Part shown: piece after piece, positions 2,796-50,242 of the stretch | How the letters are laid out: each line of letters begins with the position of its first letter | Numbering within the stretch: position 1 is the first letter of the stretch | Source: an uncultured Chitinophaga sp. | Lineage (GTDB): Bacteria; Planctomycetota; Planctomycetia; Planctomycetales; Planctomycetaceae | Direction of reading: 5' to 3' | DNA: 64,000 bases | NCBI GenBank assembly: GCA_964517865.1 | Contig: CAZFDW010000001.1 | Coordinates: 82 to 64,081 of the forward strand | Program-made: the position numbers and the translations under genes | Notes under the pieces: model-generated | What the model saw: only the letters and a program-made list of their open reading frames with translations | Told to the model about the DNA's origin: nothing | Database searches by the model: none

Positions 2796-4358
2796 ATGAG
2801 TTATCTGTTTCTCTCAGGTTCTACAGGGCTCCTTGGAGCTTACTTACTTCGCGATTTAATGCGATCCAGGGTCAATCTGGCCGTGTTGACGAGGTCAACA
2901 CGCATGGAGTCCGCTCAACAGCGCATGGAGTCCCTGATCGGACGTTGGGAGAAGGAAGCTGGATATGCTTTACCCCGTCCGGTCATTCTTGAGGGTGATT
3001 TGAAACGTGCCGACCTTGGCCTGTCCGCCCGAGATACAGAATGGGTGCAGACACATTGTCATGCGTTTATGAACAACGCTGCGAGCCTGACTTTTTACGG
3101 CAACGGGCGGGACGAAGAGCCTTACCTTTCGAATCTGAATGGGACTCGAAACGTCCTGGAATTCTGCAGTAAGACTGATATACGTGAATTCCACCACGTT
3201 TCAACAGCCTATGTCTGCGGCACCCGTCGCGGTCGAATCCTCGAGTCAGAGCTCGACGTCGGGCAGGAGCACGGCAACGACTATGAAATCAGTAAATTTG
3301 AATCCGAGAAACTGGTTCGTGCGGCAGATTTCCTGACCGACCTGACGGTCTATCGTCCCGGCATTATTGTGGGCGATGCAAAGACTGGATTCACGACGAC
3401 GTTTCATGGTTTCTACGTTCCTCTGAAGCTTGTCTCAACGCTGATGGCCAGGACCGGGGCGGTGGGAGTAAGCCGGGATGAACTGGAAATTGGCGTTCGG
3501 ACGGCGGGTTCGCACCTGATGCGGCACGTACTCAACACAACCGGGCACGAAAAGAAGAATCTGGTGCCAGTGGACTGGGTCGCTGCGGTAATGAGTCACA
3601 TCTACTGTCAGTCCAGGCATCACGGCCAGACATATCATCTGACACCGAAGCAGTCCGTGCCTGTCGCGGTGATGCAGCAAGCCATAGAAGATTCTTTCAT
3701 CAAGTACACATCAATGACGAGCAAGGCTGCTCAGACATCAATCGATTTTGACAAATTCGGTGAGTACTTTTATGAGCAGATGCTGGTCTACCGTTCGTAT
3801 TGGGGGGACGATCCGGAATTTGATTGTGCTAACACGCTGGCCGCCGCGCCACATTTACCGTGCCCGGAAGTTGATGCCGAGTTGCTTCAGCGGCAGTGCA
3901 AATTTGCGATTGAATCGAATTTCGGATGGCCGAAGCCTCGAGCCGCAAAGTTGAATACGGATGTGGATTCCTGTCTGTTGCCAATGTTGAATGCCGAGCG
4001 AAATTCAGATGAGTCAGGATCTCACACAGCAGTTGTCGGTCTGAGTGTCAGTGGAAATGGTGGCGGTCAATGGCAACTCGGGATTCAGAACGGTCGTGTC
4101 GTCAACGCTGAAGTGGGAATCAGTGACAGCTGCACCGCGATTATTTATCTGAATACATCATGTTTTGCCGAATTGCTGTCCGGATTGAAAACTGTGGAAC
4201 AGGCGGTGCATCTTGGATCTGTTCACATCGAGGGAGCCGAGGCGCATATGTCTCAGATTCTGCACGGAATGCAGGACCTGATTTCCGGTAACAGACTCAG
4301 CCAGAGGGGTACGGCGGAGTCAGCTTGTTGCGGAGATCCTGTGAGTACGCAGGTTTGA
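2796..4358 (+). CDS. Thioester/fatty-acyl reductase (extended SDR, NAD_binding_4 type) fused to a C-terminal SCP2-like lipid-binding domain
   Basis: Rossmann motif LSGSTGLLGAYLL and catalytic Y-x3-K (NDYEISKFESEKLV). The C-terminal region at about 4020-4290 (VVGLSVSGNGGGQWQLGIQNGRV...FAELLSGLKTVEQAVHLGSVHIEGA) fits the SCP2 pattern. Confidence 0.8.
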   Translation: MSYLFLSGSTGLLGAYLLRDLMRSRVNLAVLTRSTRMESAQQRMESLIGRWEKEAGYALPRPVILEGDLKRADLGLSARDTEWVQTHCHAFMNNAASLTFYGNGRDEEPYLSNLNGTRNVLEFCSKTDIREFHHVSTAYVCGTRRGRILESELDVGQEHGNDYEISKFESEKLVRAADFLTDLTVYRPGIIVGDAKTGFTTTFHGFYVPLKLVSTLMARTGAVGVSRDELEIGVRTAGSHLMRHVLNTTGHEKKNLVPVDWVAAVMSHIYCQSRHHGQTYHLTPKQSVPVAVMQQAIEDSFIKYTSMTSKAAQTSIDFDKFGEYFYEQMLVYRSYWGDDPEFDCANTLAAAPHLPCPEVDAELLQRQCKFAIESNFGWPKPRAAKLNTDVDSCLLPMLNAERNSDESGSHTAVVGLSVSGNGGGQWQLGIQNGRVVNAEVGISDSCTAIIYLNTSCFAELLSGLKTVEQAVHLGSVHIEGAEAHMSQILHGMQDLISGNRLSQRGTAESACCGDPVSTQV

Positions 4359-4442
4359 ACCGGGTGTCGGCGTTCCAGAGGAACCTCTCGGGCGGCGAAG
4401 AACTGTCGATAGAGGAAAACAAAAAAGCGGGGGAGGAGAATT

Positions 4443-5957
4443 GTGATCTCAGCATTTAAGAGTCAGAGCTCAGGTGCCGCTTTGTCGGGGGACAGCAGTG
4501 GTCAGCCTGAAATCGTCCATTTTGATGCAACGACGCGACGCAAAGAAAAGATGCGCCACCTGGCGGGCCAGGAACGGCCCGACAGCGTTGCAGTCGCTGC
4601 GAACGGTGGAAAGGAAGCGCTGCGTGCAGATTTGCGGACTGCCGTTCGGGCCACAGATCCAGAACTTAGTCGGCGGCAGGCCATGACCAGGGTCACTGAT
4701 CCCGCTGCCAGGTCGGCTGCGTCATCAGCACCGGTGCAGCGACAACCAGCCCCAGGCAACAATGGGATCGCACGGGCGGTGAATTCAAAACCGCCTCAGA
4801 CCATTGCGCCTGCGGCAGAAAAGCCTGAGGCAGAGACAATTTCTGCAGTGACTTCAGCATCGCCTGAAAAACTGAATATTGACATCTCTCAACTCGAAGC
4901 TGTTCTGGTCAACTTCGTCGTCGAGCAAACAGGTTATCCAGAGGAGATGGTTGAGCTGGACGCAGACCTTGAGGCTGATCTGGGTATCGACAGTATCAAA
5001 AAAGCACAGATGCTTGGCGAACTGGCCGAGCAGTTGAATGTGAAGATCAATATCAGCGAAGACATGTCGCTCGATGATTTTCCGACGCTGCGACACATCA
5101 CAGAATTTCTCAGGAAAGCCGCGAACGAAACGGACGCTTCGGCCGCGATCGAGAATACCGAAGTGGCCTCCTCGCCAGCATCGACAATTGCACCGGAGAC
5201 GCCGATTCGCACGACCACGACTACAACATCAAAACTTAACTCTCCCGATCTTCAGCATTTGCTGGTGAATTTTGTGGTAGAACAAACCGGCTATCCGCCC
5301 GAAATGGTGGAAATGGATGCCGACCTTGAGGCTGATCTTGGGATCGACAGTATTAAAAAGGCCCAGATGTTTGGTGAGCTGGCCGAACAACTGAATATTC
5401 AGATCAGAATCACGGAAGAGATGTCTCTGGATGACTTCCCGACTCTGCGTCACGTTCTCCAGGCCCTTGAATCCGCTGCGACTGACTCAGCGGCGGCAGA
5501 GCAGGTCGCGGTACCGCAAATTCCACTGTCGGCCAGGTCATTTTCGGCGGACTTAAAGCGTGAGGAACCACGACAAAACGTGCCTTCAGGTGCAACTCCT
5601 GTCGCGACCGTCACGGGCGCTGCCATGGCCGCACCGATTCGAGCTTCTGTTTCTGCTGCGACAGGACAGGATGTCAGTGATTCGACAAAGCCGTCGGCGT
5701 CCAGTCTGACGCGTGAAGAGCTGGAAGCATTCCTTGTAAACTTTGTCGTCGAACAAACCGGTTACCCGCAGGAAATGGTGGAACTGGATGCGGACCTTGA
5801 AGCTGATCTTGGAATCGACAGCATTAAGAAGGCTCAGCTGTTCGGCGAACTTGCTGAAAATCTGGACGTGCAGATTCAGATCACGGACGATATGTCACTC
5901 GACGACTATCGGACACTGCGGGATGTTCTGAACCTTCTCGCGCAGGAAAAGAATTAG
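4443..5957 (+). CDS. Stand-alone triple acyl carrier protein (three tandem PP-binding domains) with a ~145-aa low-complexity N-terminus
   Basis: GTG start preceded by the GGGGGAGGAG Shine-Dalgarno. Three near-identical modules each carry DADLEADLGIDSIKKAQ, separated by Ala/Pro/Thr-rich linkers. Confidence 0.85.
   Translation: MISAFKSQSSGAALSGDSSGQPEIVHFDATTRRKEKMRHLAGQERPDSVAVAANGGKEALRADLRTAVRATDPELSRRQAMTRVTDPAARSAASSAPVQRQPAPGNNGIARAVNSKPPQTIAPAAEKPEAETISAVTSASPEKLNIDISQLEAVLVNFVVEQTGYPEEMVELDADLEADLGIDSIKKAQMLGELAEQLNVKINISEDMSLDDFPTLRHITEFLRKAANETDASAAIENTEVASSPASTIAPETPIRTTTTTTSKLNSPDLQHLLVNFVVEQTGYPPEMVEMDADLEADLGIDSIKKAQMFGELAEQLNIQIRITEEMSLDDFPTLRHVLQALESAATDSAAAEQVAVPQIPLSARSFSADLKREEPRQNVPSGATPVATVTGAAMAAPIRASVSAATGQDVSDSTKPSASSLTREELEAFLVNFVVEQTGYPQEMVELDADLEADLGIDSIKKAQLFGELAENLDVQIQITDDMSLDDYRTLRDVLNLLAQEKN
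4872..5120 (+). other. ACP domain 1
   Basis: VNFVVEQTGYPEEMVELDADLEADLGIDSIKKAQMLGELAEQL. The attachment Ser codon AGT is at 4992-4994. Confidence 0.85.
5247..5470 (+). other. ACP domain 2
   Basis: VNFVVEQTGYPPEMVEMDADLEADLGIDSIKKAQMFGELAEQL. The Ser codon is at 5349-5351. Confidence 0.85.
5707..5945 (+). other. ACP domain 3
   Basis: VNFVVEQTGYPQEMVELDADLEADLGIDSIKKAQLFGELAENL. The Ser codon is at 5820-5822. Confidence 0.85.
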
Positions 5958-6102
5958 GCTGGACATTCTCACCTGTGGAATGCTCAGCTCCCTGCGATTC
6001 CGAGACACGCTGCGCGCCGGTTCATCGAATGGATGATGGTGCGCGCGTCTCTGCTGAGACGCGGAGTCGGCGTTCCGATATTTTTACAGTAGAGGAAATC
6101 AG

Positions 6103-9100
6103 ATGAGTCGTTTCTCCGAAAAGCCAGTTGCCATTATCGGAATGGGTTGTCGCCTTCCGGGTGCAGACAATGTGGATGAGTTCTGGCAACTGCTGATCGA
6201 AGGCCGAAGTGCGTTGGGAGAACTGCCGCCGGATCGCATGGATCGCGAACTGCAGTACGCGCCTCAAAAGGGAATTCGTACGCGATCATATTCCTGCCTG
6301 GGAGGTGTGGCTCAGGAGCAGCAGTTTTCGCAGATCGATTGTCCGGTTTCTCAATCGCTCATCGACCAGTCTCATTCAGCACACATTACGCTGTGCACCG
6401 TCGCGGCATCGGCCTGCCGGGATGCAGGACTCAATCCCTATGCCTTGCCAAATCGGAATGTGGGGGTTTACGTTGGGCACACGCCACCCAGCGCCCACAT
6501 CGGGCAGGTTGTTTACGCCCGCATGATCGCGCAGACAGCGGAGTATCTCCGGGAGATTCGGGAGCTGGATCAGTTACCACCCGGTGAAAAGGATGCCATC
6601 ATTCGGGAGATCGTGCACTCTGTGCGCAAGGACTACAAGGCTGGAGATCCGCTGACAAGGATGCGATCCTATGCGAATCATGGCCCGGGTTTGATTTCGC
6701 AGGCGTTTGGCCTGGATGGACCTTCAATCGCTTTCGACGCAGCATGTGCTTCCTCGTTTCGAGCGCTGGGGCACGGCATTCGCGCTTTGCAGCGAGGTGC
6801 CGTTGACATGGCACTCATTGGCGGTGCATCGTATGTTCACGGCGACACACTCGTGGTTTTTTCACAGGCTCAGACTCTGAGTGCGGTTGGCTCAATGCCC
6901 TTCGACGAGAAGGCCGCAGGGTTAGTCGCTGCAGGCGGATACGTCGTGCTGGCGTTAAAAACACTGGAGCGGGCGATGGCCGACGGCGACAGCATTCAGG
7001 CGGTCATCTGCGGTCTGGGAGTGTCGTCGGACGGCAAAGGAAAAAGTCTGTGGGCACCCCGACAGGAGGGGCAGATTGAAGCCATCTCGCGAGCCTATGG
7101 TCACGGAATCGAATTTCGTGATCTGCAGTATCTGGAGATGCATGCCACCTCAACGCAGGTCGGCGACGCGACCGAATTGGCAGCCATGGCAAAGTCCGCT
7201 CATGGACAGTTTCCACCGCATACGAAGATTCCGATTGGCAGTGTGAAGGCGAATATTGGTCATACTCTCGAGACAGCAGGGATTGCCAGTCTGCTGAAGA
7301 CTGTGCTGGCGATGAAACACGGGAAAATCCCACCGCAGATCAATGTGCAGCAGCTCAACAGCACCGTGAATTGGGAGGAGCTCCCCTTCTTTGTTCCGAC
7401 ACAGGCGCTGGAATGGAAACGTCCTGCCCCGAACATTCCCCGCATGGCGGCCGTTAACGCATTCGGGATTGGCGGGTTGAACGTCCATATTGCCGTGCGT
7501 GAACATCTTCCCGTGGCAACTTCCACACATCCCGTCAGCTCGCCGCCAGTGAAGCAACTGATTGCCGCAACGGACGACAATCTGAGTGACGAAGGAGCAC
7601 TGGCGATCGTTGGAATGGGAGCAATCTATCCAGGCGCACGAACGATAGATCATTTATGGGACGTGTTTCGTGAAGGACGCGACCAAAAATCTGAAGTTGC
7701 TCCGCAACGCTGGAAAAAAAATCTGGCGTACGATGCTGCGTCGCATGAACTTTGGAAAGTACCGACCGCAACAGGCGGTTTCATCAATGACTATGAATAC
7801 GACTGGAAGCGTCACAAAGTTCCTCCAAAACAGATCGCCAGTGCCGACCCGTTGCAGTTCATGTTACTGGATGCTGCGGATCAGGCCCTGAAAGATTCCG
7901 GCTATGATGCTAAGCCATTCGATCGAAATCGGACCGGCGTCATTGTCGGGATTGTGTTCGGAGGCGAATTCGCCGATCAGCTGCAGGCCGGCCTGCGCTT
8001 AACGGATTTTCAGAAACGGTTGTCAGAGGCGCTGCAGAATCGCGGCGTGGCCACAGAAAAGATCAATCAGATCTGCGCAGAATATGAAAACATCCTGTTA
8101 GAGCACATGCCAGCGCTCATTGATGAAACCGGCAGCTTTACGGCCAGTACGCTGGCATCACGAATTACAAAGACGTTCAACCTGATGGGAGGAGCAGTCG
8201 CACTGGACGCTGGCGACTGCTCGTCCTTGTCCGCGATTGAGTGTTGTGCAGACGTCCTGCTGGCTGGCGACTGCGATATGATGATTTGTGCGTCCGGGCA
8301 GCGCGCGATGGGAATTCCCACATTCGAAGGCCTGAAGCAACACGAACTGCTGTCGGTCGGCGAACCGCACGCTCCATTTGATTCGCGCGCGACGGGATCT
8401 GTTCCTGGAGAAGGCGTCGGCGCGGTCATTCTGAAGCGTCTCGCTGATGCACAACGTGATGGAGACCGGATTCATGGCATCATTCGCGGACTTGGCGTCG
8501 CTCGTTCAGATTCACGACGTGAGGCGCTGCGTAATGCCTTGAGTCGCGGACTGCATTCTGCCGGACTGACCCCGCAGGATATTGCATTTATTGAAGCCGG
8601 TTCAAGCGGCGTACCCGATCGGGACAGAGATGAGATTCTGGCGATCGCTGACGTCTATGGAGCCGAATCCCGTCCGGAGCCGCTGCCCATCGGAAGCGTC
8701 GCCGGCCAGATGGGGAACATCGGCGGTGGCTCCGGGATGGCCTCACTCATCAAAGCCGTCTCGCAACTGAATCATGCCGAAATGTCCGCATCTGTGGGGC
8801 TTGAGTCACCGATTTCAGAACTGGGAGATAACGCAAAGATTGTGCGCCCGTGCAACGCACCCAGCCGAATTCCACCAGTGAATGTCAACGGAAGAATGTT
8901 TGCAGGCATCACTTCGTACGCAAATCATCATGTCGCATACCATTTGATTGTGGAAGGGGCGACACGTGTCCCGATGCCAGCTCCTTCGGTAAAGCGTCCG
9001 TCACTGATGGCCAGGCCCGCTGCTCAGCCGTGTGAACTTCGGTCGCCTGCGGTCTCGCCGGCCTCACCGCGTGTGTCGTCGGCATGGCAGCCTGAATCTT

Positions 9101-14926: not shown

Positions 14927-14989
14927 ACGGCGAATTGATGTGGACGCCGTTGTTTCCTGTCCTCAAACAAAGATTTGATAAAAACGCCG

Positions 14990-15940: not shown

Positions 15941-15942
15941 CG

Positions 15943-17226
15943 ATGCGATTCTGGAACATTGTACAAAAGGATGTCATCCTGCTGGTTCGTGACAGCCGCG
16001 CGCTGTTCGTCCTGGTCATATTTCCGCTCGTGTTCATCACGATCATCGGCTTGACGACCGGTAAGCTGCTGGGGTGGAAGAATGAGAATCAAATTTTGAA
16101 AATCGGTGTCATCGACAGGACGAATTACGCCGCATTGGAGGACGAAACCGATCGTCACCGGGCGCGCAACATGGCCATGAAGATGGTAAACGGAGTCCGC
16201 CGTGGAAAAAACCAGCGCGGCGAAATGCTCGATTCCAACTGTAAATTTCAGGAGTCACTGGAGAACGGCAGTCTGGATGCAGTGCTGGAGATCGGACCGG
16301 AGTTCTACGGTATTTATCAGACGCTGGAACCTGAAGATGCATCTTCCAGTGGTTCCGGAGTTCTGACGAAGGGACTTTTCGGCCTGGGAATGACATTACA
16401 TTCAAATCTGCCAGAGACTTCCGGCACACGTTCGATCATTGAACAGTTATTATTTGATCAGGCAATCAAAACCGTGTTGCCTTATGTGTTGTGTGACAAG
16501 TTTCACACGTCGAACGTGATGGTGAATGTCCAGATTCAGCGAAAACTGAATTGCCAGCAGTTGCGAACGGAAGTCGTAGAACTCCTTCCTCCCTCGGAAG
16601 AAACTGCTGATTCCTCCGGTGGCGACGACATGCTGTACACCGTTCTGATTCCTTCCTACACCGTGATGTTTGTGTTTTTCCTGATCAACATCATGGCACG
16701 TTCGTTCTTACAGGAGCGCGACCTCGGCACACTGCGCAGACTGCGATTTGCACCGATTTCCGATCCCGGACTTGTCGCCGGAAAAACTCTCCCCTTCCTG
16801 TTTATTTCCCTTGTCCAGACTGGACTGTTGTTTGTGAGCGGGAAGTTGCTTTTTGGAATGATCTGGGGGCCTGCGCCCTGGATGCTGATTCCTGTTATCT
16901 GTGCCACATCGCTGTCTGCAACTTCTCTGGGACTGCTTGTCGCTACGATAGTTCGCAGTGACTCGCAGGTCTCGGCCTACGCGAACATCATTGTTATTTC
17001 GATGGCAGGGTTTAGTGGTTGCTTCATGCCGCGTGTCTGGTTACCCGGGCCCATGCAGACCGGAAGTTTGATTTTTCCGCATGCGTGGGCGCTGATGGCG
17101 TATGAACAGTTGCTGGTCAAAAGAGTTCCTGATCTTGGTCTTGTATGGCAGTACTGCGGCGTACTTTTGCTCTTCTCTGCTGTCTGCTTTGTGGCCGGGT
17201 GCTGGCGGTTTCGGCATAATGACTAA
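15943..17226 (+). CDS. ABC-2 type transporter permease
   Basis: Starts 2 nt after the ATPase stop. One N-terminal TM, a large loop and a C-terminal cluster of TM helices are typical of ABC-2 permeases. Confidence 0.8.
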   Translation: MRFWNIVQKDVILLVRDSRALFVLVIFPLVFITIIGLTTGKLLGWKNENQILKIGVIDRTNYAALEDETDRHRARNMAMKMVNGVRRGKNQRGEMLDSNCKFQESLENGSLDAVLEIGPEFYGIYQTLEPEDASSSGSGVLTKGLFGLGMTLHSNLPETSGTRSIIEQLLFDQAIKTVLPYVLCDKFHTSNVMVNVQIQRKLNCQQLRTEVVELLPPSEETADSSGGDDMLYTVLIPSYTVMFVFFLINIMARSFLQERDLGTLRRLRFAPISDPGLVAGKTLPFLFISLVQTGLLFVSGKLLFGMIWGPAPWMLIPVICATSLSATSLGLLVATIVRSDSQVSAYANIIVISMAGFSGCFMPRVWLPGPMQTGSLIFPHAWALMAYEQLLVKRVPDLGLVWQYCGVLLLFSAVCFVAGCWRFRHND

Positions 17227-17294
17227 CCTCGACTCTGAATGCTCCCCGGACAGCCAGCAGCAGTGTGATGCCGCCTGACGATAAGCCGTTAAAA

Positions 17295-20200
17295 CTACTG
17301 GCGAGGCGGGTTCAAGGTGGTAGCATGGAATCCCTGTGTCCAAAGAATGGCGGTCCCATCTTCTGCCAGAAGCCAGATATCCCAGGTGAGTCGGCGACCA
17401 TTGCGGCCGCGAAAAATGACTCTGGCCAGACATTTCTCACCGGCGGCCGGCAATCGACCAAAGTCAATCTGGTCGATCACATGTGGCAACTGTCGCGTTC
17501 CCAGGTTGTGCGTGGCGAACAGGTCGCACAAAAACAGACAGCCATCCAGCAACGCAGCCGGGGTGTGCCAGCGTGATCCGGGCCGTGAACCTCCCAATTC
17601 AGAAACTGGCGGGGCGATCATCCGCCCCCAGGAACCGTGCGCGTCGTGGTGGACAGATTTCAGAGTTCTCAGTTGTGGACCGTAAAACACAGTGCCACTT
17701 TCCGCAGCTCCCATGTCATGCCAGTCATTCGGATACGGTACCGCTGTCCAGGCATTCGACTCTGGCGGAGTACCGATATCCGGGGGCAAAATCTGCTGTG
17801 GATCATCCGCCATATTCAGTATGCAGGTTTGATACAAACGGAATGGATCGATCAGCAGACCCTGCTTCTCAAAGAAGTCTCCCGTCAGCTGACACGTCAA
17901 TTCCTGTTGAGTGCCGGTAAGTAGTATCCGCGCATGATGAAGGCGAGGGCTGGCCATGCGAAATCCGTTCTGGATTTGCAGATTGCGGAGCCGGCTGACG
18001 AACCGGCCGCCGCTCCAGATGAACGCAGCCTGCACACAGGTTTCAATGCCAACGACGGCTGGCAACAGCGGAACTCCGTCGTTCAGATGTCCATTGAGAA
18101 ACGGATCGGTATCCGGGGAAAATCGAATTTCAGCAATGCCCTGCTGTCCGATTCCCGAAAAAATATGATCGATTAATGGGGATTCGGAGATCAGATCCGT
18201 CAACTTCTCTCGCTGATGACATTCGATTTCGGAGGGCATCAGCCTGTTCAGAGCATCGCTGGAACTGATGTCCGGCCAGATCAGAATCTCCGTGTCGGCG
18301 GAGTCGGTGCTCAATTCTGCAATGACATGTGCAGTCGCTTCGTCCATCGCTGTCAAATGTTCACGCGCGCCAGCATCGGTATCCTGATTCACTTCACTGG
18401 TGATGACATCATTTTCAGCCCATGCCGGGCACAGGATTGTGACGGCACGGAATCCGTCCCGTCGTTCTGCCGCCACGCGCTGCAAAATCAGAGTCAGCAT
18501 TTCGTCGCCGAGCGCGAGTGCAGTCTGCAGTGCCGAACCAAACCTTCCCGCCGCCGAGGAAGTACAGATCAAATGGGAAAGTGGATCGCTGGCGGTCAGT
18601 TTCAGGAGGGCATCGGTGCATTCAACCCTGAGTCGCAACTGGTCTGCGACGTTCAGGGGATCAGTCTTCAAAAACTGTCCCGCCAGTGTCAGTTCCGCCC
18701 CGTGAAGAATGCCCTCAATTTTAACGTCCTGCCGACGTATCGCTGTCAGTACTTTTTCCAGTTGAGTCCTGTCACAGAGATCACACTGGTGGCAGGTATA
18801 CTGAATCCCGGCGTTGGTCAGAGCGACGAGTGTCCTGTCCAGAGGCAGATCTGCATCAATCAAGTGCAGTCGTAACCCATGCTGTCGCCCCAACTGCAGA
18901 GCCAGAGATGCGATATGACTACGACACACGCCCGTGACAATCCATGTTGTGCCACGACGAATGTTCCGCTGCGGAAGCTCTGAGACCGGCTGGAAAGTCG
19001 GTCTGGTCGTATATCTTTTCCCACGAACCGATGCCGTCTCGATGATGGTGGTATCGGTTGCCAGTTCGCGGCAAACGGCGGCAGCGATCATTTTCGGCGG
19101 TTCATTTTCTGGTGCATCGATCACTCGGATTCGCAGCACACCTTCGGTTTCGCGGCTAAGTGACTTCAACAACCCCGCCATTCCACCACGATACGGTGAC
19201 GCAAACAGACCACGGCATCCCCCGTCTCCCCCGAATAAACTGACTGCTGCAAGAGACGCCCGGTGGATGAGTTTTGCGTCACAAACATGCTGATACCATC
19301 GCTGGCAGATGCAAAATCCTGTGACGGCTGCATCAGAGGGTCTGCTCCCCGGTGAACTCAGGTCACTGTTCTCGCTGTTGCCTTCATCGCAGCCGGTCAT
19401 CAGGAACAAATGTGGCGTTGGAGCATGTGCCCAGATGTCGTCTAACTCCTGCAGTAAACTATCGGTGCTGGCGAAGTCTGTCAGCTGATGGACGGAAATC
19501 TGCAGGCTCTCCAATTTTTCTTTCAGCGCTGCAGCTGCCGCGTTATGGCCAAGGATCAGTGCCGCACCGGAAAACACACTGACCGGTGAAACAGACGTCG
19601 GTGATGTTGCTTCCACGGTGCGAAAGACGTACCTCCGCATCGTCCGCGATTGTGAAGAATTCGTCGATGCATCGTGCGGTTTAACAGCCGAGTGTGGCCC
19701 AACGGCATCTGCAGATTCAGCTGCAGGCTGCAGCATGGATGCTGATGGAGTCCGCATCGTCCATTCAATCAACTGTTCCAGGCACGCGAAGTCTGTTGGA
19801 GCATTTTCCTTTCGTGTGGGCAGATCGGGGAATTCCCGGAACATTAAGTCCAAAAGGTATTGCCGGGCAGCTTTATTGAGGCCGAGATCACCTCTGAGGT
19901 CTGAGTTCAGCAGGATCAGGTCTGATGGATAGCCGGTCAGATCGATCACCGCCTGGACCAACCGCTGGACCAGCCGACGCCGATCCGGAGACTTCAACGT
20001 CGGCCCAACGCTGCTGGCTGCGTTTTCTGCTGGAGCCGCCAGATCCATGGTCATGGCGGGTGCTGCCACAGGAACGATGCTCTGGTCAGAGTCGCTCCGT
20101 GGTGGTGTGCCTGGCGATGTGTGAGTCTGTGACTTTAATGGTATCGACAATTCCCAGGCAATGTCAGCTGGCAATACAGTTCTGATTGTATCGCCTGCAC

Positions 20201-22439
20201 TCTGAGCGTCACTCAATCGCTTCAGGATGATGGCGGCCGCGCCTGTCCCGAGAGCGCATCCTGCCGGGCCTTTTCCGGCCGCCAGCATCTGCTGGAAGGA
20301 CACATCTGTCATGCGTTGTCCCACCGCACAGAGGACCATGTCGCAGGTTCCGCTGTGCAGGAGGTCAACGGCGGTGAGCAATGCTGCCTGTGCGGAGTAT
20401 GCACCGCCCTCCACTGTCAGTGCACCACCCATCAGATCCAGATGCTTTGCGATCATCGATGACAGAGTACTGCTGGAAAGACTCCCTGTGACATCCAGAC
20501 TGGCTGGTTTCCGGGTCAGCAATGTGTTCCTGAAGGAATCTATGACTTCGGCAATTTCAACGTCAGCCACGTTTTCGCGTTGCAGCACACTGGCAATCGC
20601 TTCGCGGATCTCGGGCATTCGAACACCGACAAGGGCGTCGCACGAAAAATCACTCGTGAAGTACGTGCCCACAACCGTGCCGACACGCGAACGATCAAAA
20701 TCCCGTGTGGAATAGTTGCCGTCTGCAAGTGCATCAACAGCAGCATCCAGCAGCATATATTGTAATGGATTGGCATTGGCAATCTGGCGAGGAGGAATGC
20801 GGTGTTTCCTCCAGTCGAAGACATAATCGTCCGCAGTGACACTGGATGCTGTCGGCTGGCGACGTGCATTTGATACAGCAACACCGGCGAGCTGAAGAAA
20901 CTCCCGCACCAGGCTGGAGTTGGTGAGCGGCTGTCCAATTCCAATGACAGCAATCTGGTCATGAGCGAGCCTGTTTTCGGGCAGCGGAAGTGAAATCACA
21001 CTGGAGTCTGAAAAACTATTCGTAATCGGCGGAGATTCCTGATCGACGACCATATGAACATTGAGGCCGCCGATTCCAAAGGCGTCAATACCGGCTCTGC
21101 GTGGATGCCCGTCCCCGGGGGCAGGCCAGGGCAATGGTTCCGTGGTGACTCGAAATGGGATCTGATCCCAGTGAATTTGCTGATTGAGCGGCCTGCCATG
21201 CATCGCCGGAGGAATCGTTTCAAATTGCATGGCCAGCAATGTCTTGATCAGACCCACCATTCCGGCGGCTTCCAGAGTGTGTCCCACATTGGCCTTTGCG
21301 CTGCCGATGGGAATCCCTGGTGAAACGATTTCCGCTAGTGTTTCGGTCAGTGATGCGATTTCAGTGGCGTCGCCAAGCTGAGTGGAAGTTGCATGGGCTT
21401 CGATGTACTGCAGACGGGTGGGATCAATTCCGGATGAATAAGCTCTTCGAATCGCTGCCACCTGTCCTTCCTGCCGTGGCGCCCAGAAGGTTTTACCGCG
21501 TCCGTCCGATGAGACTCCCATAGATCTTATGATGCCCAGGATCTGGTCTCCGTCCAGCCGAGCGCGGTGAAGTGTCTTGATCATCACCGCTGCATATCCA
21601 TCCGAGGGTACCATCCCGTCGGCGTCGGATGAAAACGGCGAAGAATGAGTAGCGCTCATCGTTTGTGTGGGTGAGAGCAACACCATCTCCCACCAGTTAC
21701 GATACGAAAAGGCGCCGACAACAGCGGCATCAGTTCTTCCCCGGTGGAGTGACATTGCGGCCAGATGAATTGCGACAAACGAAGATGCACACGCTGCGTC
21801 CAACGCGATCGCGGGGCCGGAAAGATTCAGTGCGTGCTGGATGAGTTTCGCGGCGGCGGCCGGTGTGACCACATTCACCCCAGACTCTTTCCACGACGTT
21901 GTCGTCGTCCGAATCTGCTGAATCAATCCGGCGGCGGCCTTTTCCATAACCCGAGGATCAATCGGCTTTTGTGAACCTGCTTCCCGAAGCAGTTGTGACA
22001 GTTCTTCGGCATGACTGTGGTAAACAAATTCCGCTTCCAGGTTACTGCCGGTGCAGTTGCCTACAAACACTGCGGTGTCGGGTAAAGACCTGAGTCCCGG
22101 CCCGTAACCGGCATGCTGCACTGCAGCGCATGCCACTTCACACATTGTCAGATGTGTGGGATCGGCACGGAGCGCGTCATCCGGCGAAACCGGGCAGGCT
22201 TTGTGATCCCGAGTGCTTGCGCGTACGGTTCCGGCGATTCGAGAATAAGATTTTTCTGCGGTTTCCCGGTCTTCGCTGTAATACAGCCGCTGGTTCAGGC
22301 GATCCGGTGGCAGAATTGAGATTCCATGCCGTCCTTCGACCAGCAACTTCCAGAAATCATCCAGGTTATCTGCACCGGCCAAGCGGCAGGCCATACCGAC
22401 AACAGCAAGGGGAGTTGTCCGAAAGTCATCAGCAGACAT
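17295..22439 (-). CDS. Second PUFA-synthase-like megasynthase, paralog of 6103-14211: KS - truncated CLF - Ser-less ACP-like - degenerate KR - PS-DH
   Basis: 1714-aa ORF with a GGGAGG SD upstream of ATG 22439. Shares collinear motifs with the first synthase (for example DWRKHRIPPRQIANANPLQYMLLDAA versus DWKRHKVPPKQIASADPLQFMLLDAA). Confidence 0.9.
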   Translation of the reverse strand: MSADDFRTTPLAVVGMACRLAGADNLDDFWKLLVEGRHGISILPPDRLNQRLYYSEDRETAEKSYSRIAGTVRASTRDHKACPVSPDDALRADPTHLTMCEVACAAVQHAGYGPGLRSLPDTAVFVGNCTGSNLEAEFVYHSHAEELSQLLREAGSQKPIDPRVMEKAAAGLIQQIRTTTTSWKESGVNVVTPAAAAKLIQHALNLSGPAIALDAACASSFVAIHLAAMSLHRGRTDAAVVGAFSYRNWWEMVLLSPTQTMSATHSSPFSSDADGMVPSDGYAAVMIKTLHRARLDGDQILGIIRSMGVSSDGRGKTFWAPRQEGQVAAIRRAYSSGIDPTRLQYIEAHATSTQLGDATEIASLTETLAEIVSPGIPIGSAKANVGHTLEAAGMVGLIKTLLAMQFETIPPAMHGRPLNQQIHWDQIPFRVTTEPLPWPAPGDGHPRRAGIDAFGIGGLNVHMVVDQESPPITNSFSDSSVISLPLPENRLAHDQIAVIGIGQPLTNSSLVREFLQLAGVAVSNARRQPTASSVTADDYVFDWRKHRIPPRQIANANPLQYMLLDAAVDALADGNYSTRDFDRSRVGTVVGTYFTSDFSCDALVGVRMPEIREAIASVLQRENVADVEIAEVIDSFRNTLLTRKPASLDVTGSLSSSTLSSMIAKHLDLMGGALTVEGGAYSAQAALLTAVDLLHSGTCDMVLCAVGQRMTDVSFQQMLAAGKGPAGCALGTGAAAIILKRLSDAQSAGDTIRTVLPADIAWELSIPLKSQTHTSPGTPPRSDSDQSIVPVAAPAMTMDLAAPAENAASSVGPTLKSPDRRRLVQRLVQAVIDLTGYPSDLILLNSDLRGDLGLNKAARQYLLDLMFREFPDLPTRKENAPTDFACLEQLIEWTMRTPSASMLQPAAESADAVGPHSAVKPHDASTNSSQSRTMRRYVFRTVEATSPTSVSPVSVFSGAALILGHNAAAAALKEKLESLQISVHQLTDFASTDSLLQELDDIWAHAPTPHLFLMTGCDEGNSENSDLSSPGSRPSDAAVTGFCICQRWYQHVCDAKLIHRASLAAVSLFGGDGGCRGLFASPYRGGMAGLLKSLSRETEGVLRIRVIDAPENEPPKMIAAAVCRELATDTTIIETASVRGKRYTTRPTFQPVSELPQRNIRRGTTWIVTGVCRSHIASLALQLGRQHGLRLHLIDADLPLDRTLVALTNAGIQYTCHQCDLCDRTQLEKVLTAIRRQDVKIEGILHGAELTLAGQFLKTDPLNVADQLRLRVECTDALLKLTASDPLSHLICTSSAAGRFGSALQTALALGDEMLTLILQRVAAERRDGFRAVTILCPAWAENDVITSEVNQDTDAGAREHLTAMDEATAHVIAELSTDSADTEILIWPDISSSDALNRLMPSEIECHQREKLTDLISESPLIDHIFSGIGQQGIAEIRFSPDTDPFLNGHLNDGVPLLPAVVGIETCVQAAFIWSGGRFVSRLRNLQIQNGFRMASPRLHHARILLTGTQQELTCQLTGDFFEKQGLLIDPFRLYQTCILNMADDPQQILPPDIGTPPESNAWTAVPYPNDWHDMGAAESGTVFYGPQLRTLKSVHHDAHGSWGRMIAPPVSELGGSRPGSRWHTPAALLDGCLFLCDLFATHNLGTRQLPHVIDQIDFGRLPAAGEKCLARVIFRGRNGRRLTWDIWLLAEDGTAILWTQGFHATTLNPPRQ
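17298..18180 (-). other. PS-type dehydratase domain
   Basis: HLNDGVPLLP (H-x3-G-x4-P) and ALLDGCLF motifs are conserved. Confidence 0.8.
18410..19575 (-). other. KR-like domain with degenerate cofactor and catalytic motifs
   Basis: The Rossmann motif reads TWIVTGVCRSHIA (versus ITGGARGIT). The Lys motif reads RLRVECT (versus AVKVDGA). The Tyr motif reads GSALQTALALGDEML (versus GVGQTDYCVANDML). Confidence 0.7.
19762..19990 (-). other. ACP-like domain lacking the phosphopantetheine attachment serine
   Basis: LVQAVIDLTGYPSDLILLNSDLRGDLGLNKAARQYLL aligns with [33 protein letters not shown]. The D-S dipeptide is replaced by N-K (codons 19877-19872). Confidence 0.7.
20175..20962 (-). other. Truncated CLF-like domain (~260 aa versus ~450 aa in the paralog)
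   Basis: IAVIGIGQ...LMGGALTVEGGAYSAQAAL (no Cys). It ends after ...AAAIILKRLSDAQSAGDTIRTVL. The C-terminal half of the thiolase fold is absent. Confidence 0.7.
21040..22412 (-). other. KS domain, catalytically intact
   Basis: LAVVGMACRLAGA; LDAACASSF (Cys codon 21789-21791); IEAHATSTQLGD; GSAKANVGHTLEAAG. Confidence 0.9.
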
Positions 22440-22477
22440 GTTATCGACGCCTCCCGGCGGACGCTCACACAGGATCG

Positions 22478-23242
22478 TTACACATGGATTGCGGATCCGC
22501 CATCCACGGTCAGCGTTTCTCCCTGCACAAGATCACTCAAACGGCTGGCCAGAAACAGCACAACATCGGCAACGTCGTCCGGCATCAGTTCTCGTTCTCC
22601 GACCATGCTCTTGTTCTTTCGTTCGGCGAACATGACGCCGGAATACGGGATTCGACGAGTGGAGTCTGTTTCAACAAGTCCGGCTTTAACAACGTTGACG
22701 TTAATTCCCTTGTCTCCAACTTCCAGAGTCAGATGTCGCGCGATACTCTCGAGCGCTGCTTTGGATCCGCCAATCAGACCGTACATCGGCAACGCCATAT
22801 GAGATCCATGGCTGGAAATTGCAATCACCTTGGCGCGCCCGACACTTCGCTCAAGCAGTGGCAATGCTTCTCGCACCAAAAACACGAGTGACAATACATT
22901 GATGTTCATTGTGGCATGGAAATGCTTCGTGTTTGACGCCAGCAGTGGACGAAAGCCACCCGTGGCAGCGTTGCTGACGATAATTTCCAGCTGTCCGATT
23001 TCCTCCTTAATGAAATCGATAAGCGAAATGACGTCTACCTCTTCCCCGACATCAGCCTTAACCACATAGGCTCTCCGGCCCATGGCTGTAATCTGATCAG
23101 CCACTTCCATGGCTGCGGCACGCGACGTGACATAATTAATGATCACATCAGCGCCTGCCTCTGCCAGTCGCAATGCACATGCTTTTCCAATCCCGCGGGA
23201 GCTTCCCGTAACCAGTGCGACTTTTCCAGCCAAGTTGATCAT
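22478..23242 (-). CDS. fabL: Enoyl-[acyl-carrier-protein] reductase, FabL type (SDR)
   Basis: KVALVTGSSRGIGKACALRLAEAGADVIINY...VKADVG...NAATGGFRP...TMNIN...ISSHGS...YGLIGGSKAALE...TVDGG is collinear with Bacillus FabL as I remember it. It lies 38 nt upstream of the second synthase. Confidence 0.75.
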   Translation of the reverse strand: MINLAGKVALVTGSSRGIGKACALRLAEAGADVIINYVTSRAAAMEVADQITAMGRRAYVVKADVGEEVDVISLIDFIKEEIGQLEIIVSNAATGGFRPLLASNTKHFHATMNINVLSLVFLVREALPLLERSVGRAKVIAISSHGSHMALPMYGLIGGSKAALESIARHLTLEVGDKGINVNVVKAGLVETDSTRRIPYSGVMFAERKNKSMVGERELMPDDVADVVLFLASRLSDLVQGETLTVDGGSAIHV

Positions 23243-25487: not shown

Positions 25488-25529
25488 GATGTATTCATTC
25501 TTCGGAGTTCATAAAGCTTCCGGCGTCTT

Positions 25530-25608
25530 GTAGGCCGGACCAAGCGCAGCGCAGTTCCGGCAGGTGTCTGGCCATTGCCGGAACTTCGCTGCGCTTGGTC
25601 CGGCCTAC
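25530..25608. repeat. REP-like 33-bp inverted repeat, family GTAGGCCGGACCAAGCG...TTCCGGCA, copy 1
   Basis: Arms at 25530-25562 and 25576-25608 with 1 mismatch and a 13-nt loop. It lies between the MATE stop and the SDR start. Confidence 0.85.
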
Positions 25609-25640
25609 TCTAAAATTCAAACATCGACGTCGCGCCATTG

Positions 25641-49972: not shown

Positions 49973-50242
49973 GACTTCAACTCGGTACTTTTGCTGAACA
50001 TCCGCACGGGTGAGCGCCCCACCCCGATTTCCGGGAACATTAACGTGGAATCCACAGTGTAGCAGCGCGACGGACGACTGAGTCAAAGCAGACTGCTAAA
50101 ATCGCCGACAAGTTCGACCGTAAGCCGCCGAATTTTCGGTTTGCGGTTTTAGAGTGCTGCGTTAAAGCGGCGACGTGCCGGCTTGAGCTTAGACTCCGGC
50201 AAACAGCTGCCATTGAATTTCAGCGGAATTGGAATCTTCACA

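What the first reader, a model, noticed from the sequence alone, without database searches (positions are those of the whole stretch)
2796..23242. Convergent two-operon pfa/hgl-like lipid megasynthase cluster with a non-canonical parts list and no assignable product
Seen: the plus operon encodes reductase-SCP2, a triple ACP, KS-CLF-AT-C45-KR-DH, a PPTase (11-nt overlap), an ABC ATPase and an ABC-2 permease. The minus operon encodes FabL and KS-CLF(truncated)-ACP(no Ser)-KR(degenerate)-DH. The two operons converge with a 68-bp gap. Established: tandem ACPs with LGIDS, KS-CLF pairs and PS-type DH are hallmarks of PUFA synthases and heterocyst-glycolipid synthases. Hgl systems also use a terminal reductase and a dedicated exporter. 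Inference: I see no FabA-type DH/isomerase domain and no PfaD-type ER. The product is therefore more likely a saturated, hydroxy or keto very-long-chain aldehyde or alcohol exported to the envelope than a PUFA. The combination of a trans-only ACP, a C45 domain, a degenerate partner synthase and FabL matches no described system I know.
Basis: partly seen in the sequence, partly recalled or inferred. Interest (0 to 1): 0.85.

Follow-up and report, generated by a model that had tools for sequence, protein, structure and literature searches.

The report
Planctomycete two-synthase long-chain lipid cluster
This is a real, intact gene cluster for an iterative fatty-acid/polyketide-type machine that most likely makes and exports a reduced very-long-chain lipid (aldehyde or alcohol); it belongs to a large family of such machines that carry an odd built-in "C45" domain and that nobody appears to have studied experimentally.

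Summary
The cluster is not a one-off. KS-CLF-AT-[ACPn]-C45-KR-DH synthases form a large family: 101 clusters at 50% identity with E<1e-30, in Planctomycetota, Acidobacteriota and a MAG labelled Deltaproteobacteria, including cultured Planctopirus limnophila. Seven of eight loci with readable context also have a PPTase next to the synthase and a FabL-like SDR nearby; these SDRs are 64-91% identical to the window's. The convergent SDR-plus-partner-synthase operon recurs in three other loci at 37-53% identity. In all eight partner orthologues the KS Cys/His/His and DH His/Asp are invariant, the CLF is a half-domain, the ACP lacks Ser in 7 of 8, and the KR lacks its motifs. dN/dS is 0.15-0.32, so the partner is a maintained KS+DH supplier, not a relic. 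One new point: the window's C45 domain has Gly where the family's Gly|Cys nucleophile sits. This variant occurs only in synthases without in-cis ACPs, and in all seven loci that have a partner synthase. No FabA-type DH or PfaD-type ER is in the window. The reductase models as a thioester-release R domain fused to an SCP2-like domain. The product is unknown and I found no paper on this family. Verdict: new variant of a known kind.

The parts
2796..4358 (+). Stand-alone thioester reductase (aa 1-~380) fused to a C-terminal SCP2-like lipid-binding domain (aa ~410-500). Proposed chain-release enzyme.
   Evidence: PF07993 E=3e-42; TIGR01746 126 bits, below its cutoff of 213. GxxGxxG, Y163 and K167 are invariant in 41 orthologues. 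AF2 model pLDDT 85; best PDB matches are the myxalamid MxaA terminal R domain (4w4t, E=4e-19) and the S. coelicolor PKS thioreductase. SCP2 is hit in 29/41 orthologues and Alkyl_sulf_C in 22/41.
4443..5957 (+). Carrier protein with three tandem ACP domains (about aa 147-226, 270-345, 422-503), each with DLGIDS, after a low-complexity N-terminus.
   Evidence: PF00550 with 3 stretches; best NCBIfam hit is the ACP region of PfaA (TIGR02813, E=5e-48).
6103..14211 (+). Main synthase, 2702 aa: KS-CLF-AT-C45-KR-DH.
   Evidence: Orthologues with the same architecture in L003 (domains 56-77% identical), L005, L013, L015 and L016.
6103..7542 (+). KS domain, catalytic Cys-His-His present (DAACASS, EMHATST, NIGHT).
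7588..8982 (+). Full-length CLF: KS-like, with Asp at the Cys position (LDAGDCSS) and both catalytic His absent.
   Evidence: Across the family, Asp/Glu at this position is the commonest pattern.
9358..10347 (+). Acyltransferase (GQGSQ, GHSFG, AAFH), malonyl-type.
   Evidence: PF00698 E=1e-36; FabD TIGR00128 E=3e-52.
10513..11592 (+). C45 (Ntn-hydrolase / IAT-like) domain. It has Gly1564 (nt 10792-10794) where the family and P. chrysogenum IAT have the Gly|Cys nucleophile. Probably not an Ntn-type catalyst, but still under constraint.
   Evidence: NF040521 140 bits (cutoff 85); PF03417. Alignment to IAT 2x1c/2x1d and to 115 homologues: 96 of 117 aligned sequences have Cys, the window has Gly. 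dN/dS 0.15 against L005.
11743..13287 (+). KR: structural subdomain plus catalytic subdomain (ITGGARGIT, GQTDY). The only intact KR in the cluster.
   Evidence: PF08659 E=2e-30.
13318..14208 (+). PS-type dehydratase (HLFKGKPLLP; LLDGCF).
   Evidence: PF21089 and PF14765.
14201..14926 (+). Sfp-type PPTase. Its ATG overlaps the synthase stop codon by 11 nt.
   Evidence: PF01648 E=4e-11. Sequence read. The same 11-nt overlap occurs in L005. A PPTase lies directly after the synthase in L005, L006, L008, L010, L013, L014 and L015; in L011 it lies just upstream.
14975..15940 (+). ABC ATPase of the DrrA/NodI type. The true start is probably the ATG at 14990.
   Evidence: PF00005 E=2e-35; TIGR01188 269 bits. 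The L005 and L015 orthologues are 316 aa.
15943..17226 (+). ABC-2 family permease (exporter membrane subunit).
   Evidence: PF12698, PF01061, PF12679. Conserved in L005, L012 and L015.
17227..17294 (.). 68-bp gap between the two convergent stop codons.
   Evidence: The consensus scan found no terminator here.
17295..22439 (-). Partner synthase, 1714 aa. Active KS (21000-22439); N-terminal-half CLF (20160-20942); Ser-less pseudo-ACP (19740-19994); pseudo-KR including its structural subdomain (18270-19634); active PS-type DH (17298-18188).
   Evidence: Eight orthologues at 37-80% identity keep KS C/H/H and DH H/D, and all lack the KR motifs; 7 of 8 lack the ACP Ser. dN/dS: KS 0.17, DH 0.15, pseudo-domains about 0.3, linkers 0.6-0.8.
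22478..23242 (-). FabL-like SDR. Proposed trans-acting enoyl reductase and first gene of the minus-strand operon.
   Evidence: PRK08063 FabL 255.8 bits (cutoff 328). Y-x6-K motif (YGLIGGSK). 64-91% identical to the SDR next to the synthase in L007, L008, L010, L011, L013, L014 and L015; an SDR of the same size is also present in L016.

Best explanation
The region is one functional biosynthetic unit. It is an iterative, highly reducing type I FAS/PKS of the PUFA-synthase / heterocyst-glycolipid-synthase kind, belonging to an uncharacterised family defined by a KS-CLF-AT-[ACPn]-C45-KR-DH synthase, usually with a PPTase beside it and a FabL-like SDR nearby.

Proposed mechanism (the domains and motifs are shown; the order of events is inferred):
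1. The PPTase, translationally coupled to the synthase, activates the three ACPs of the free-standing carrier protein.
2. The single AT loads malonyl units.
3. Two active ketosynthases extend the chain. One is paired with a full CLF in the main synthase, the other with a half-CLF in the partner. By analogy with the two KS domains of PUFA synthases, they would serve different chain-length or structure windows.
4. The single intact KR reduces the beta-keto group.
5. Two PS-type DH domains, one per synthase, dehydrate.
6. The FabL-like SDR reduces the enoyl intermediates in trans.
7. The thioester reductase-SCP2 protein releases the finished acyl-ACP as an aldehyde or primary alcohol. Its SCP2-like domain holds the hydrophobic chain.
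8. The DrrAB/NodIJ-type ABC-2 transporter moves the product out of the cytoplasmic membrane.

The product is therefore predicted to be a long or very-long, largely saturated alkyl aldehyde or alcohol, possibly keeping one or a few hydroxy, keto or trans-ene positions. It is not predicted to be a methylene-interrupted cis-PUFA.

The pseudo-ACP and pseudo-KR of the partner act as scaffold. The C45 domain has lost the family's nucleophile in this clade and most likely serves a structural or acyl-binding role.
For: - Domains and catalytic motifs.
- Family size and architecture: 860 hits, 101 of them clusters at E<1e-30, nearly all embedded in 2.3-3.5-kaa synthases.
- Synthase, PPTase and SDR recur together in seven of the eight loci with readable context, including Planctopirus limnophila.
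- The reductase is adjacent in L003, L005, L007 and L008. It belongs to a family of about 500-aa TR-SCP2 proteins, mostly from Planctomycetaceae. Structurally it matches release R domains.
- The convergent SDR-plus-partner operon is conserved in L013, L014 and L015, and is colinear in L016. In L005 and L012 only the convergent partner gene is visible.
- Purifying selection acts on all domains.
- No FabA or PfaD-type domain was found in any ORF of the window that I scanned.
- PUFA synthases are distinguished by having two KS and two DH domains used differentially (PMC11962503).
- In L007 the same reductase + synthase pair sits beside a glycosyltransferase, Rieske oxygenases and UDP-galactopyranose mutase. 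This fits a fatty-alcohol aglycone, as in heterocyst glycolipids.
Against: - No chemistry, expression or genetics exists for any family member that I could find, so chain length, oxidation pattern and destination are pure inference.
- The FabL-like SDR scores below NCBIfam's FabL equivalog cutoff and could be a ketoreductase or something else.
- The reductase scores below the TIGR01746 cutoff.
- The role of the C45 domain, which defines the family, is unexplained. In Cys-bearing relatives it may do something essential (priming, off-loading, self-cleavage) that this model does not account for.
- The half-CLF lacks half of a thiolase fold, so the partner KS may not work as a normal KS-CLF pair.
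- The starter unit is unknown. A relative (L008) has an AMP-ligase and the window does not.
Confidence: 0.7

Rival explanations
1. The minus-strand partner synthase is a decaying duplicate with no role. The plus operon plus the SDR alone make the product.
For: The partner has a truncated CLF, a Ser-less ACP and a KR without cofactor or catalytic motifs.
Against: Full-length orthologues exist at 37-80% identity. KS Cys/His/His and DH His/Asp are invariant in them, and the same 'defects' are present in nearly all, so the defects are old and stable. Linkage with the SDR is conserved in L013, L014, L015 and L016. dN/dS is 0.15-0.2 for KS, CLF and DH and about 0.3 for the pseudo-domains, against 0.6-0.8 for the linkers. 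L016 shows an intermediate state with a full CLF and an intact KR Gly motif but Tyr changed to Ser.
Confidence: 0.05
2. The cluster makes a polyunsaturated or polyene chain (PUFA-like or olefin precursor, for example towards the planctomycete n-C31:9 hydrocarbon), not a mostly saturated one.
For: Two KS and two DH domains are the PUFA-synthase hallmark. Tandem LGIDS ACPs are present. Many planctomycetes contain n-C31:9 (PMC3327967). Shulse & Allen proposed pfa-like clusters as olefin precursors.
Against: There is no FabA-type DH/isomerase to set cis double bonds, no PfaD-type ER and no ole genes in the window. A dedicated FabL-like reductase is the most conserved accessory protein. Release by a thioester reductase gives an aldehyde or alcohol, not the acyl thioester that OleA would need.
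Confidence: 0.1
3. The C45 domain is still catalytic in this clade, using another residue. It would act as the chain-loading or chain-off-loading acyltransferase/hydrolase, with the reductase acting later or on another substrate.
For: The domain is under purifying selection as strong as the AT and KR (dN/dS 0.15). The downstream N-E-D motif is retained. A Cys lies three residues upstream in the window's closest relatives.
Against: The nucleophile and autoproteolysis position is Gly in 27 synthases of this clade. The -3 Cys is present only in the nearest sub-group (CAGG) and is Gly, Ser, Ala, Glu or Asn in the rest, so it is not a relocated nucleophile. Ntn hydrolases of this family need the N-terminal Cys exposed by self-cleavage (established for IAT; alignment).
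Confidence: 0.1
4. The alkyl chain is not the exported end product. It would be a building block for a larger conjugate (glycolipid, aminolipid or ether lipid) finished by enzymes encoded elsewhere, and the ABC-2 pump would export that conjugate.
For: Relatives carry different tailoring sets next to the same core: GT + Rieske + GLF (L007), Asn-synthase / ATP-grasp / AMP-ligase (L008), GH3 amido-synthetase (L010), aminotransferase-synthase + MMPL (L011), sulfotransferase-like + MBOAT (L016).
Against: No tailoring gene is conserved with the window's two-operon form. The flanks differ between the window, L013, L014 and L015.
Confidence: 0.3

Closest known systems
Heterocyst glycolipid synthase island of Nostocales (hglE/F/G/D/C/A/B, hglT, hgd genes; Shulse & Allen 'Type F')
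   Same: Iterative pfa-like synthase with a fused KS-CLF-AT. No FabA-type DH/I domains. Chain release by a thioester reductase to a fatty alcohol or diol. A PPTase is present, and ABC transporter genes sit in the island. A relative of the window cluster (L007) even has a glycosyltransferase next to the reductase + synthase pair.
   Different: No glycosyltransferase in the window cluster. The ACPs are on a separate protein. There is a C45 domain between AT and KR. The ER is a FabL-type SDR. The reductase is stand-alone and fused to SCP2 rather than to an ACP. The exporter is a two-gene DrrAB/NodIJ-like ABC-2 pair. The organism is a planctomycete with no heterocysts.
Bacterial PUFA synthase PfaABCDE
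   Same: Tandem ACPs with the LGIDS motif (best NCBIfam hit is the PfaA ACP region). A KS-CLF pair. Two active KS and two active DH domains spread over two polypeptides. KR followed by a PS-type DH. A dedicated Sfp-type PPTase.
   Different: No FabA-type DH/isomerase, no PfaD (FMN/NMO-type) ER and no PfaB. Both KS domains carry a CLF. Release is reductive. A C45 domain is present.
Shulse & Allen (2011) 'Type R' secondary lipid synthase (Koribacter, Solibacter, Elusimicrobium, Roseiflexus); product unknown
   Same: Described as a single large pfaA homologue with KS, MAT, CLF, 3-6 ACPs and KR, followed by a PPTase gene. The family found here also has in-cis-ACP members in Acidobacteriota.
   Different: The paper lists no C45 domain, no DH and no SDR, and gives a different domain order. 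I could not fetch those genomes, so identity of the two classes is untested.
Acyl-CoA:6-aminopenicillanic acid acyltransferase (IAT) and the C45 family of autoproteolytic Ntn acyltransferases/hydrolases
   Same: The inserted domain matches the whole C45 profile (positions 1-310 of 313) and aligns with IAT over about 275 residues. Most family members keep the Gly|Cys pair.
   Different: Here the domain is embedded in a megasynthase, and in the window's clade the Cys is replaced by Gly.
Terminal reductase (R) domains of PKS/NRPS, e.g. myxalamid MxaA; carboxylic acid reductase
   Same: Best structural matches of the modelled reductase (E=4e-19 to 1e-12). GxxGxxG and Y-x3-K are conserved.
   Different: It is stand-alone rather than the last domain of an assembly line, and it carries a C-terminal SCP2-like domain.
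Bacillus subtilis FabL enoyl-ACP reductase
   Same: Best NCBIfam hit. Y-x6-K catalytic spacing typical of SDR-type enoyl reductases (the motif rule is from my own knowledge).
   Different: It scores below the equivalog cutoff (255.8 against 328). It is dedicated to the synthase cluster rather than to housekeeping type II FAS.

Membership tests
PUFA synthase (Pfa) | FabA-type DH/isomerase domains (PfaC) | tested here: not met
   No FabA-family hit in any cluster protein or in the other ORFs of the window that I scanned. Both DH domains are PS-type (PF14765/PF21089).
PUFA synthase (Pfa) | PfaD-type (NMO/FMN) enoyl reductase | tested here: not met
   No such hit in the window. The only ER candidate is a FabL-like SDR.
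PUFA synthase (Pfa) | Tandem ACPs, KS-CLF pair, KR-DH(PS), dedicated PPTase | tested here: met
Heterocyst glycolipid (Hgl) synthase | Fused KS-CLF-AT and thioester-reductase release | tested here: met
.
Heterocyst glycolipid (Hgl) synthase | HglT glycosyltransferase in the island | tested here: not met
   No glycosyltransferase among ORFs 1-36 kb. PMC11804610 reports that hgl-like islands outside heterocytous cyanobacteria also lack hglT.
Heterocyst glycolipid (Hgl) synthase | Orthology of the synthase genes to hglE/F/G/D/C/A/B (phylogenetic placement) | not tested
Only the architectures were compared.
C45 autoproteolytic acyltransferase/hydrolase family | Match to the family profile above the curated cutoff | tested here: met
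   NF040521 140.4 bits (cutoff 85), profile positions 1-310 of 313; PF03417 43.7 bits (cutoff 23.2).
C45 autoproteolytic acyltransferase/hydrolase family | Gly|Cys self-cleavage site / N-terminal Cys nucleophile | tested here: not met
   The window has Gly1564 at the column of IAT Cys103; 96 of 117 aligned sequences have Cys there.
FabL enoyl-ACP reductase | NCBIfam equivalog score and Y-x6-K motif | tested here: inconclusive
   255.8 bits against a cutoff of 328. The Y-x6-K motif is present and invariant in all the cluster-linked orthologues aligned. Activity cannot be tested here.
Thioester reductase (terminal R) domains | Profile, cofactor and catalytic motifs, and fold | tested here: met
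   PF07993 145 bits. TIGR01746 is below its cutoff (126 against 213). G8/G11/G14, Y163 and K167 are invariant. The top Foldseek hits are R domains.
Unnamed family: C45-bearing KS-CLF-AT-[ACPn]-C45-KR-DH secondary-lipid synthases | Domain order, PPTase gene beside the synthase, highly conserved FabL-like SDR nearby | tested here: met
   This definition is my own, derived here.
Two-synthase sub-clade of that family | Gly-for-Cys C45, ACPs in trans, partner KS-(half)CLF-pseudoACP-pseudoKR-DH linked to the SDR | tested here: met
   Window, L005, L013, L014, L015 and L016 show all of these features as far as their contigs reach. L003 shows the Gly variant and trans ACPs, but the contig ends before the partner position.

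The most novel reading that the evidence does not exclude
C45-bearing synthases would be a distinct, widespread and unstudied class of bacterial secondary-lipid machines. In most members the embedded Ntn-hydrolase domain, with its intact Gly|Cys site, would self-cleave the megasynthase or transfer the acyl chain. In the window's clade that chemistry became dispensable when a duplicated partner synthase supplying a KS and a DH was recruited. The products would be envelope lipids such as very-long-chain 1,(omega-1)-diols or (omega-1)-hydroxy chains. That would give a genetic basis for orphan planctomycete lipids like the residually bound C26-C32 (omega-1)-hydroxy fatty acids.
Probability: 0.2. 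Interest if true: 0.8.

Novelty: new variant of a known kind. Interest (0 to 1): 0.6.

Why it matters
Pfa/hgl-like 'secondary lipid' synthases are widespread, but only a handful have known products. This window gives a clean, complete example of a family with 101 sequence clusters at 50% identity (E<1e-30). The family has three features not described for the known systems:
- an Ntn-hydrolase (C45) domain built into the synthase;
- a dedicated FabL-type reductase in place of PfaD;
- in one clade, a partner synthase that supplies only a KS and a DH on a scaffold of dead domains.

Cultured planctomycetes carry relatives: Planctopirus limnophila has the synthase, and Polystyrenella longa and Symmachiella dynata have the reductase. 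Product and mechanism are therefore experimentally reachable. They could explain unusual envelope lipids of planctomycetes and show what a C45 domain does inside a megasynthase.

Tried and rejected
- Word-indexed homology search with the C45-linker segment returned nothing, although relatives exist. This is a tool limitation; the exhaustive HMMER search replaced it.
- Exact-sequence look-ups of the window reductase and of P0173 (100% identical partner synthase from an NCBI contig of 64,452 bp) found no record. The source genome is therefore known only as Planctomycetaceae-like, from L001-L003.
- 'The conserved Cys three residues upstream is a relocated C45 nucleophile': rejected. It is confined to the nearest sub-group of the Gly clade.
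- 'The partner synthase is a pseudogene': rejected by conservation and dN/dS.
- 'PUFA product': judged unlikely, because FabA and PfaD-type domains are absent.
- The promoter/terminator consensus scan gave counts no higher than shuffled sequence and nothing in the 68-bp gap.
- Base composition is even across the window, so there is no sign of a recently acquired island. I did not pursue this further.
- Literature searches for a C45 or Ntn-hydrolase domain in PKS/PUFA synthases, for Planctopirus PKS products, for hglE-KS in Planctomycetota and for follow-ups of 'Type R' found no characterisation.
- I did not model the C45 domain. Its profile match was already unambiguous, and coordinates cannot be inspected with these tools.

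Full report

Yes. Pfam and NCBIfam profile searches reproduce every domain call.

The plus strand encodes:
- a NAD_binding_4 / thioester-reductase-like protein (2796-4358);
- a 504-aa protein with three PP-binding domains, each with DLGIDS (4443-5957);
- a 2702-aa synthase (6103-14211);
- a PPTase whose ATG at 14201 overlaps the synthase stop by 11 nt;
- a DrrA/NodI-type ABC ATPase;
- an ABC-2 permease.

The synthase carries an active KS (DAACASS, two His) and a CLF with Asp in place of Cys and no catalytic His. It also carries a malonyl-type AT (GHSFG), a C45 domain (NF040521, 140 bits against a cutoff of 85), a KR (ITGGARGIT, GQTDY) and a PS-type DH (HLFKGKPLLP).

The minus strand encodes a FabL-like SDR (22478-23242) and a 1714-aa synthase (17295-22439). 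The two operons end 68 bp apart.

**2. The partner synthase is maintained, not decaying**

A database search found full-length orthologues at 80, 53, 53, 48, 47, 42 and 37% identity.

In an alignment of all eight:
- the KS Cys and both His, and the DH His (HxxxGxxxxP) and Asp, are invariant;
- the CLF-like part is only the N-terminal half of a thiolase fold, without Cys;
- the ACP-like segment (BLASTP E=4e-9 to a true ACP) has Asn, Thr, Asp or Ala where the phosphopantetheine Ser should be in 7 of 8;
- the KR lacks both the Gly-rich cofactor motif and the catalytic Tyr in all eight.

The 'defects' are therefore old and stable. Against the 80% orthologue (L012), dN/dS is 0.17 for KS, 0.20 for CLF and 0.15 for DH. 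It is about 0.3 for the pseudo-ACP and pseudo-KR, and 0.6-0.8 for the linkers.

L016 shows an intermediate form. Its partner is 1943 aa with a full CLF, a Ser-less ACP, and a KR that keeps TGGARGIT but has Ser for the Tyr. It is encoded colinearly as ACPs, main synthase, SDR, partner.

The partner is thus best read as a supplier of a second KS and a second DH on a scaffold of dead domains. Functionally this parallels PfaC. PUFA synthases are distinguished by having two KS and two DH domains that are used differentially (PMC11962503).

**3. The cluster belongs to a large family**

An exhaustive HMMER search with the C45 domain against 1.84 billion representatives gave 860 hits, 101 of them at E<1e-30. 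Almost all long hits have the architecture KS-CLF-AT-[0-4 ACP]-C45-KR-DH. Some have a doubled KR or DH.

Named members come from Planctomycetaceae, Acidobacteriota and a MAG labelled Deltaproteobacteria. They include the cultured Planctopirus limnophila, P. hydrillae and P. ephydatiae (WP_013109934.1 and relatives).

Gene neighbourhoods were read for 11 distinct loci other than the window:
- A PPTase lies beside the synthase in eight of these loci. It is directly downstream in L005, L006, L008, L010, L013, L014 and L015, and just upstream in L011. L007 and L016 lack one next to the synthase; L003 and L012 were not fully annotated.
- A roughly 254-aa SDR accompanies the synthase in L007, L008, L010, L011, L013, L014, L015 and L016. 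Seven of these were aligned and are 64-91% identical to the window's, far more conserved than the synthases themselves at about 40-50%. All aligned copies carry the Y-x6-K spacing typical of SDR-type enoyl reductases (the motif rule is from my own knowledge).

The tailoring and release genes vary:
- NAD_binding_4 reductase: window, L003, L005, L007, L008.
- Glycosyltransferase + four Rieske oxygenases + UDP-galactopyranose mutase: L007.
- AMP-ligase + Asn-synthase: L008.
- GH3: L010.
- A KS-CLF-aminotransferase-ACP synthase + MMPL: L011.
- Sulfotransferase-like + MBOAT: L016.

**4. The two-operon form is a conserved sub-clade**

The arrangement SDR, then partner synthase, converging on the PPTase, main synthase and ACP genes recurs in L013 (42% partner identity), L014 (37%) and L015 (53%, with the same ABC and ABC-2 pair). 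L005 and L012 (80%) show the partner converging on the plus operon, but their contigs end before the SDR position.

In L014 the main synthase is split into a KS-CLF-AT gene and a C45-KR-DH gene.

**5.

Alignment with P. chrysogenum IAT (2x1c/2x1d) and 115 homologues places the IAT Gly102|Cys103 self-cleavage and nucleophile pair in a column that is Gly-Cys in 96 of 117 aligned sequences. The window has Gly-Gly there (C-A-G-G1564-L-H-F).

Among full-length synthases with a recognisable motif:

| C45 residue | ACPs in cis | Count |
|---|---|---|
| Cys | yes | 46 |
| Cys | no | 19 |
| Gly | no | 27 |
| Gly | yes | 0 |

In every locus where context is known, the Gly variant goes with a partner synthase (window, L005, L013, L014, L015, L016; L003 ends too early to tell). 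The Cys form goes without one (L006, L007, L008, L010, L011). These loci are related, so this is one or a few evolutionary events, not 12 independent ones.

The Cys three residues upstream in the window is confined to its nearest relatives. It is therefore not a relocated nucleophile.

The domain is nevertheless under purifying selection as strong as the AT and KR (dN/dS 0.15), so it keeps some role. I favour a structural or acyl-binding role. What the Cys-bearing version does is open; candidates are self-cleavage of the megasynthase, priming and off-loading.

**6. The reductase**

An AlphaFold2 model built from 41 orthologues has mean pLDDT 85 and pTM 0.87. Its best matches are the myxalamid MxaA terminal R domain (E=4e-19), a Streptomyces coelicolor PKS thioreductase, NRPS T-R didomains and carboxylic acid reductase.

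GxxGxxG, Y163 and K167 are invariant.

The C-terminal ~100 residues give only a weak SCP2-fold hit in the window protein. However, 29 of 41 orthologues hit SCP2 and 22 of 41 hit Alkyl_sulf_C. The family of about 500-aa proteins is common in Planctomycetaceae, including Polystyrenella longa and Symmachiella dynata.

**7. What is absent**

No FabA-type DH, PfaD-type ER, glycosyltransferase or ole gene was found in any of the window ORFs that I scanned (all of at least 180 aa that look like genes, plus a few smaller ones).

**8. Mechanism proposed**

Shown: the domains, motifs, conservation and linkage. Inferred: the order of events and the product.

- The PPTase activates the free tandem ACPs.
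- The AT loads malonate.
- The two KS domains divide the elongation cycles.
- The single KR, the two DH domains and the trans FabL-like ER process each cycle.
- The TR-SCP2 protein releases an aldehyde or alcohol.
- The ABC-2 pump exports it.

A mostly saturated long or very-long chain, possibly with retained hydroxy or keto positions, is the most economical prediction.

Some planctomycetes (Gemmatales) contain orphan C26-C32 (omega-1)-hydroxy fatty acids (PMC3327967). That oxidation pattern is also found in heterocyst glycolipid aglycones (the aglycone structure is from my own knowledge). It makes an attractive target for this kind of synthase. It is not evidence, and those organisms are not Planctomycetaceae.

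**9. Comparison with known systems, and novelty**

The system works like a hybrid of Hgl (KS-CLF-AT, reductive release, exporter, no FabA) and Pfa (tandem LGIDS ACPs, two KS, two DH). It fails defining tests for both: no FabA or PfaD for Pfa, and no HglT for Hgl.

Shulse & Allen's uncharacterised Type R (a single pfaA-like gene plus a PPTase in Acidobacteria, Chloroflexi and Elusimicrobia) may be the same superfamily. I could not test this.

Seven literature searches and the papers I opened found no paper that describes a C45 domain in a PKS or PUFA-like synthase, or assigns a product to any member. NCBI's pipeline simply names some of these 2.7-kaa proteins 'C45 family autoproteolytic acyltransferase/hydrolase'.

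I rate it a new variant of a known kind: real, coherent and conserved, with several unexplained features, but of a familiar general type. Interest 0.6.

Noticed in passing
L014:16041-24216 (also P0004/P0021); family-wide: In most family members the embedded C45 domain keeps the IAT-like Gly|Cys autoproteolysis site, so these megasynthases might cut themselves into a KS-CLF-AT(-ACP) half and a C45-KR-DH half. L014 encodes these two halves as separate adjacent genes and also has a stand-alone 358-aa C45 gene nearby (L014:7222-8298).
   Followed up: partly
L007:8502-29514: A relative in which the reductase and a synthase with four ACPs are followed by a GT28/UDPGT glycosyltransferase, four Rieske oxygenases, the FabL-like SDR, UDP-galactopyranose mutase and a methyltransferase. 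This looks like a cluster for a hydroxylated alkyl glycolipid.
   Followed up: no
L011:469-19339: Another relative pairs the C45 synthase with a KS-CLF-ACP-aminotransferase-ACP synthase, an MMPL transporter and a polysaccharide pyruvyl transferase. It is reminiscent of amino-alkyl (zeamine-type) chain synthesis.
   Followed up: no
L016:1-22482: Colinear version (ACPs, main synthase, SDR, 1943-aa partner). The partner has a full CLF and a KR that keeps the cofactor motif but has lost the Tyr, which looks like an evolutionary intermediate. It is followed by sulfotransferase-like, cupin, M20/M28 peptidase, aldo-keto reductase and MBOAT genes.
   Followed up: partly
L010 (Planctopirus limnophila DSM 3776, CP001744: 2149526-2180109): A cultured planctomycete carries a family member (WP_013109934.1, 3527 aa, four ACPs, Cys-bearing C45, two DH) followed by a PPTase, the FabL-like SDR and a GH3 amido-synthetase. 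It is a practical entry point for experiments. It is not the 'Type J' cluster that Shulse & Allen listed for this organism.
   Followed up: partly
L001 vs L002: The closest genome hits to the window reductase carry conflicting bin labels: 'Candidatus Kuenenia sp.' at 97% identity and 'Planctomycetaceae bacterium' at 95%. The Kuenenia label is probably a binning or classification error.
   Followed up: no
P0151-P0154 (Logan assemblies, cluster of P0001): The orthologue of the main synthase also occurs as two gene calls of 925 + 1778 aa (= 2703), split just after the CLF. This could be a frameshift, an assembly artefact or a real split; I did not examine it.
   Followed up: no
window 24693-29551 (-): Downstream of the cluster on the minus strand lie a second, unrelated SDR (28% identical to the FabL-like one), a MatE efflux protein and a large U32 peptidase with DUF3656. 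There is no evidence that they belong to the lipid cluster, and they are not conserved next to it in relatives.
   Followed up: partly
window 36799-38205 and 46231-47661 (-): Two DUF1501 proteins are present. A sigma-54 response regulator (39411-40829), a Ser/Thr kinase (48236-50086) and sulfatase-family genes also lie in the window. In my experience this gene content is typical of planctomycetes, which fits the taxonomic assignment.
   Followed up: no
window 1512-2342 (-): Divergently upstream of the reductase is a weak CTP_transf_1 (cytidylyltransferase-family) membrane protein, E=1e-7. A lipid-head-group enzyme next to the cluster could be relevant, but I did not see it next to the cluster in the relatives I inspected (L007, L008/L009).
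   Followed up: no
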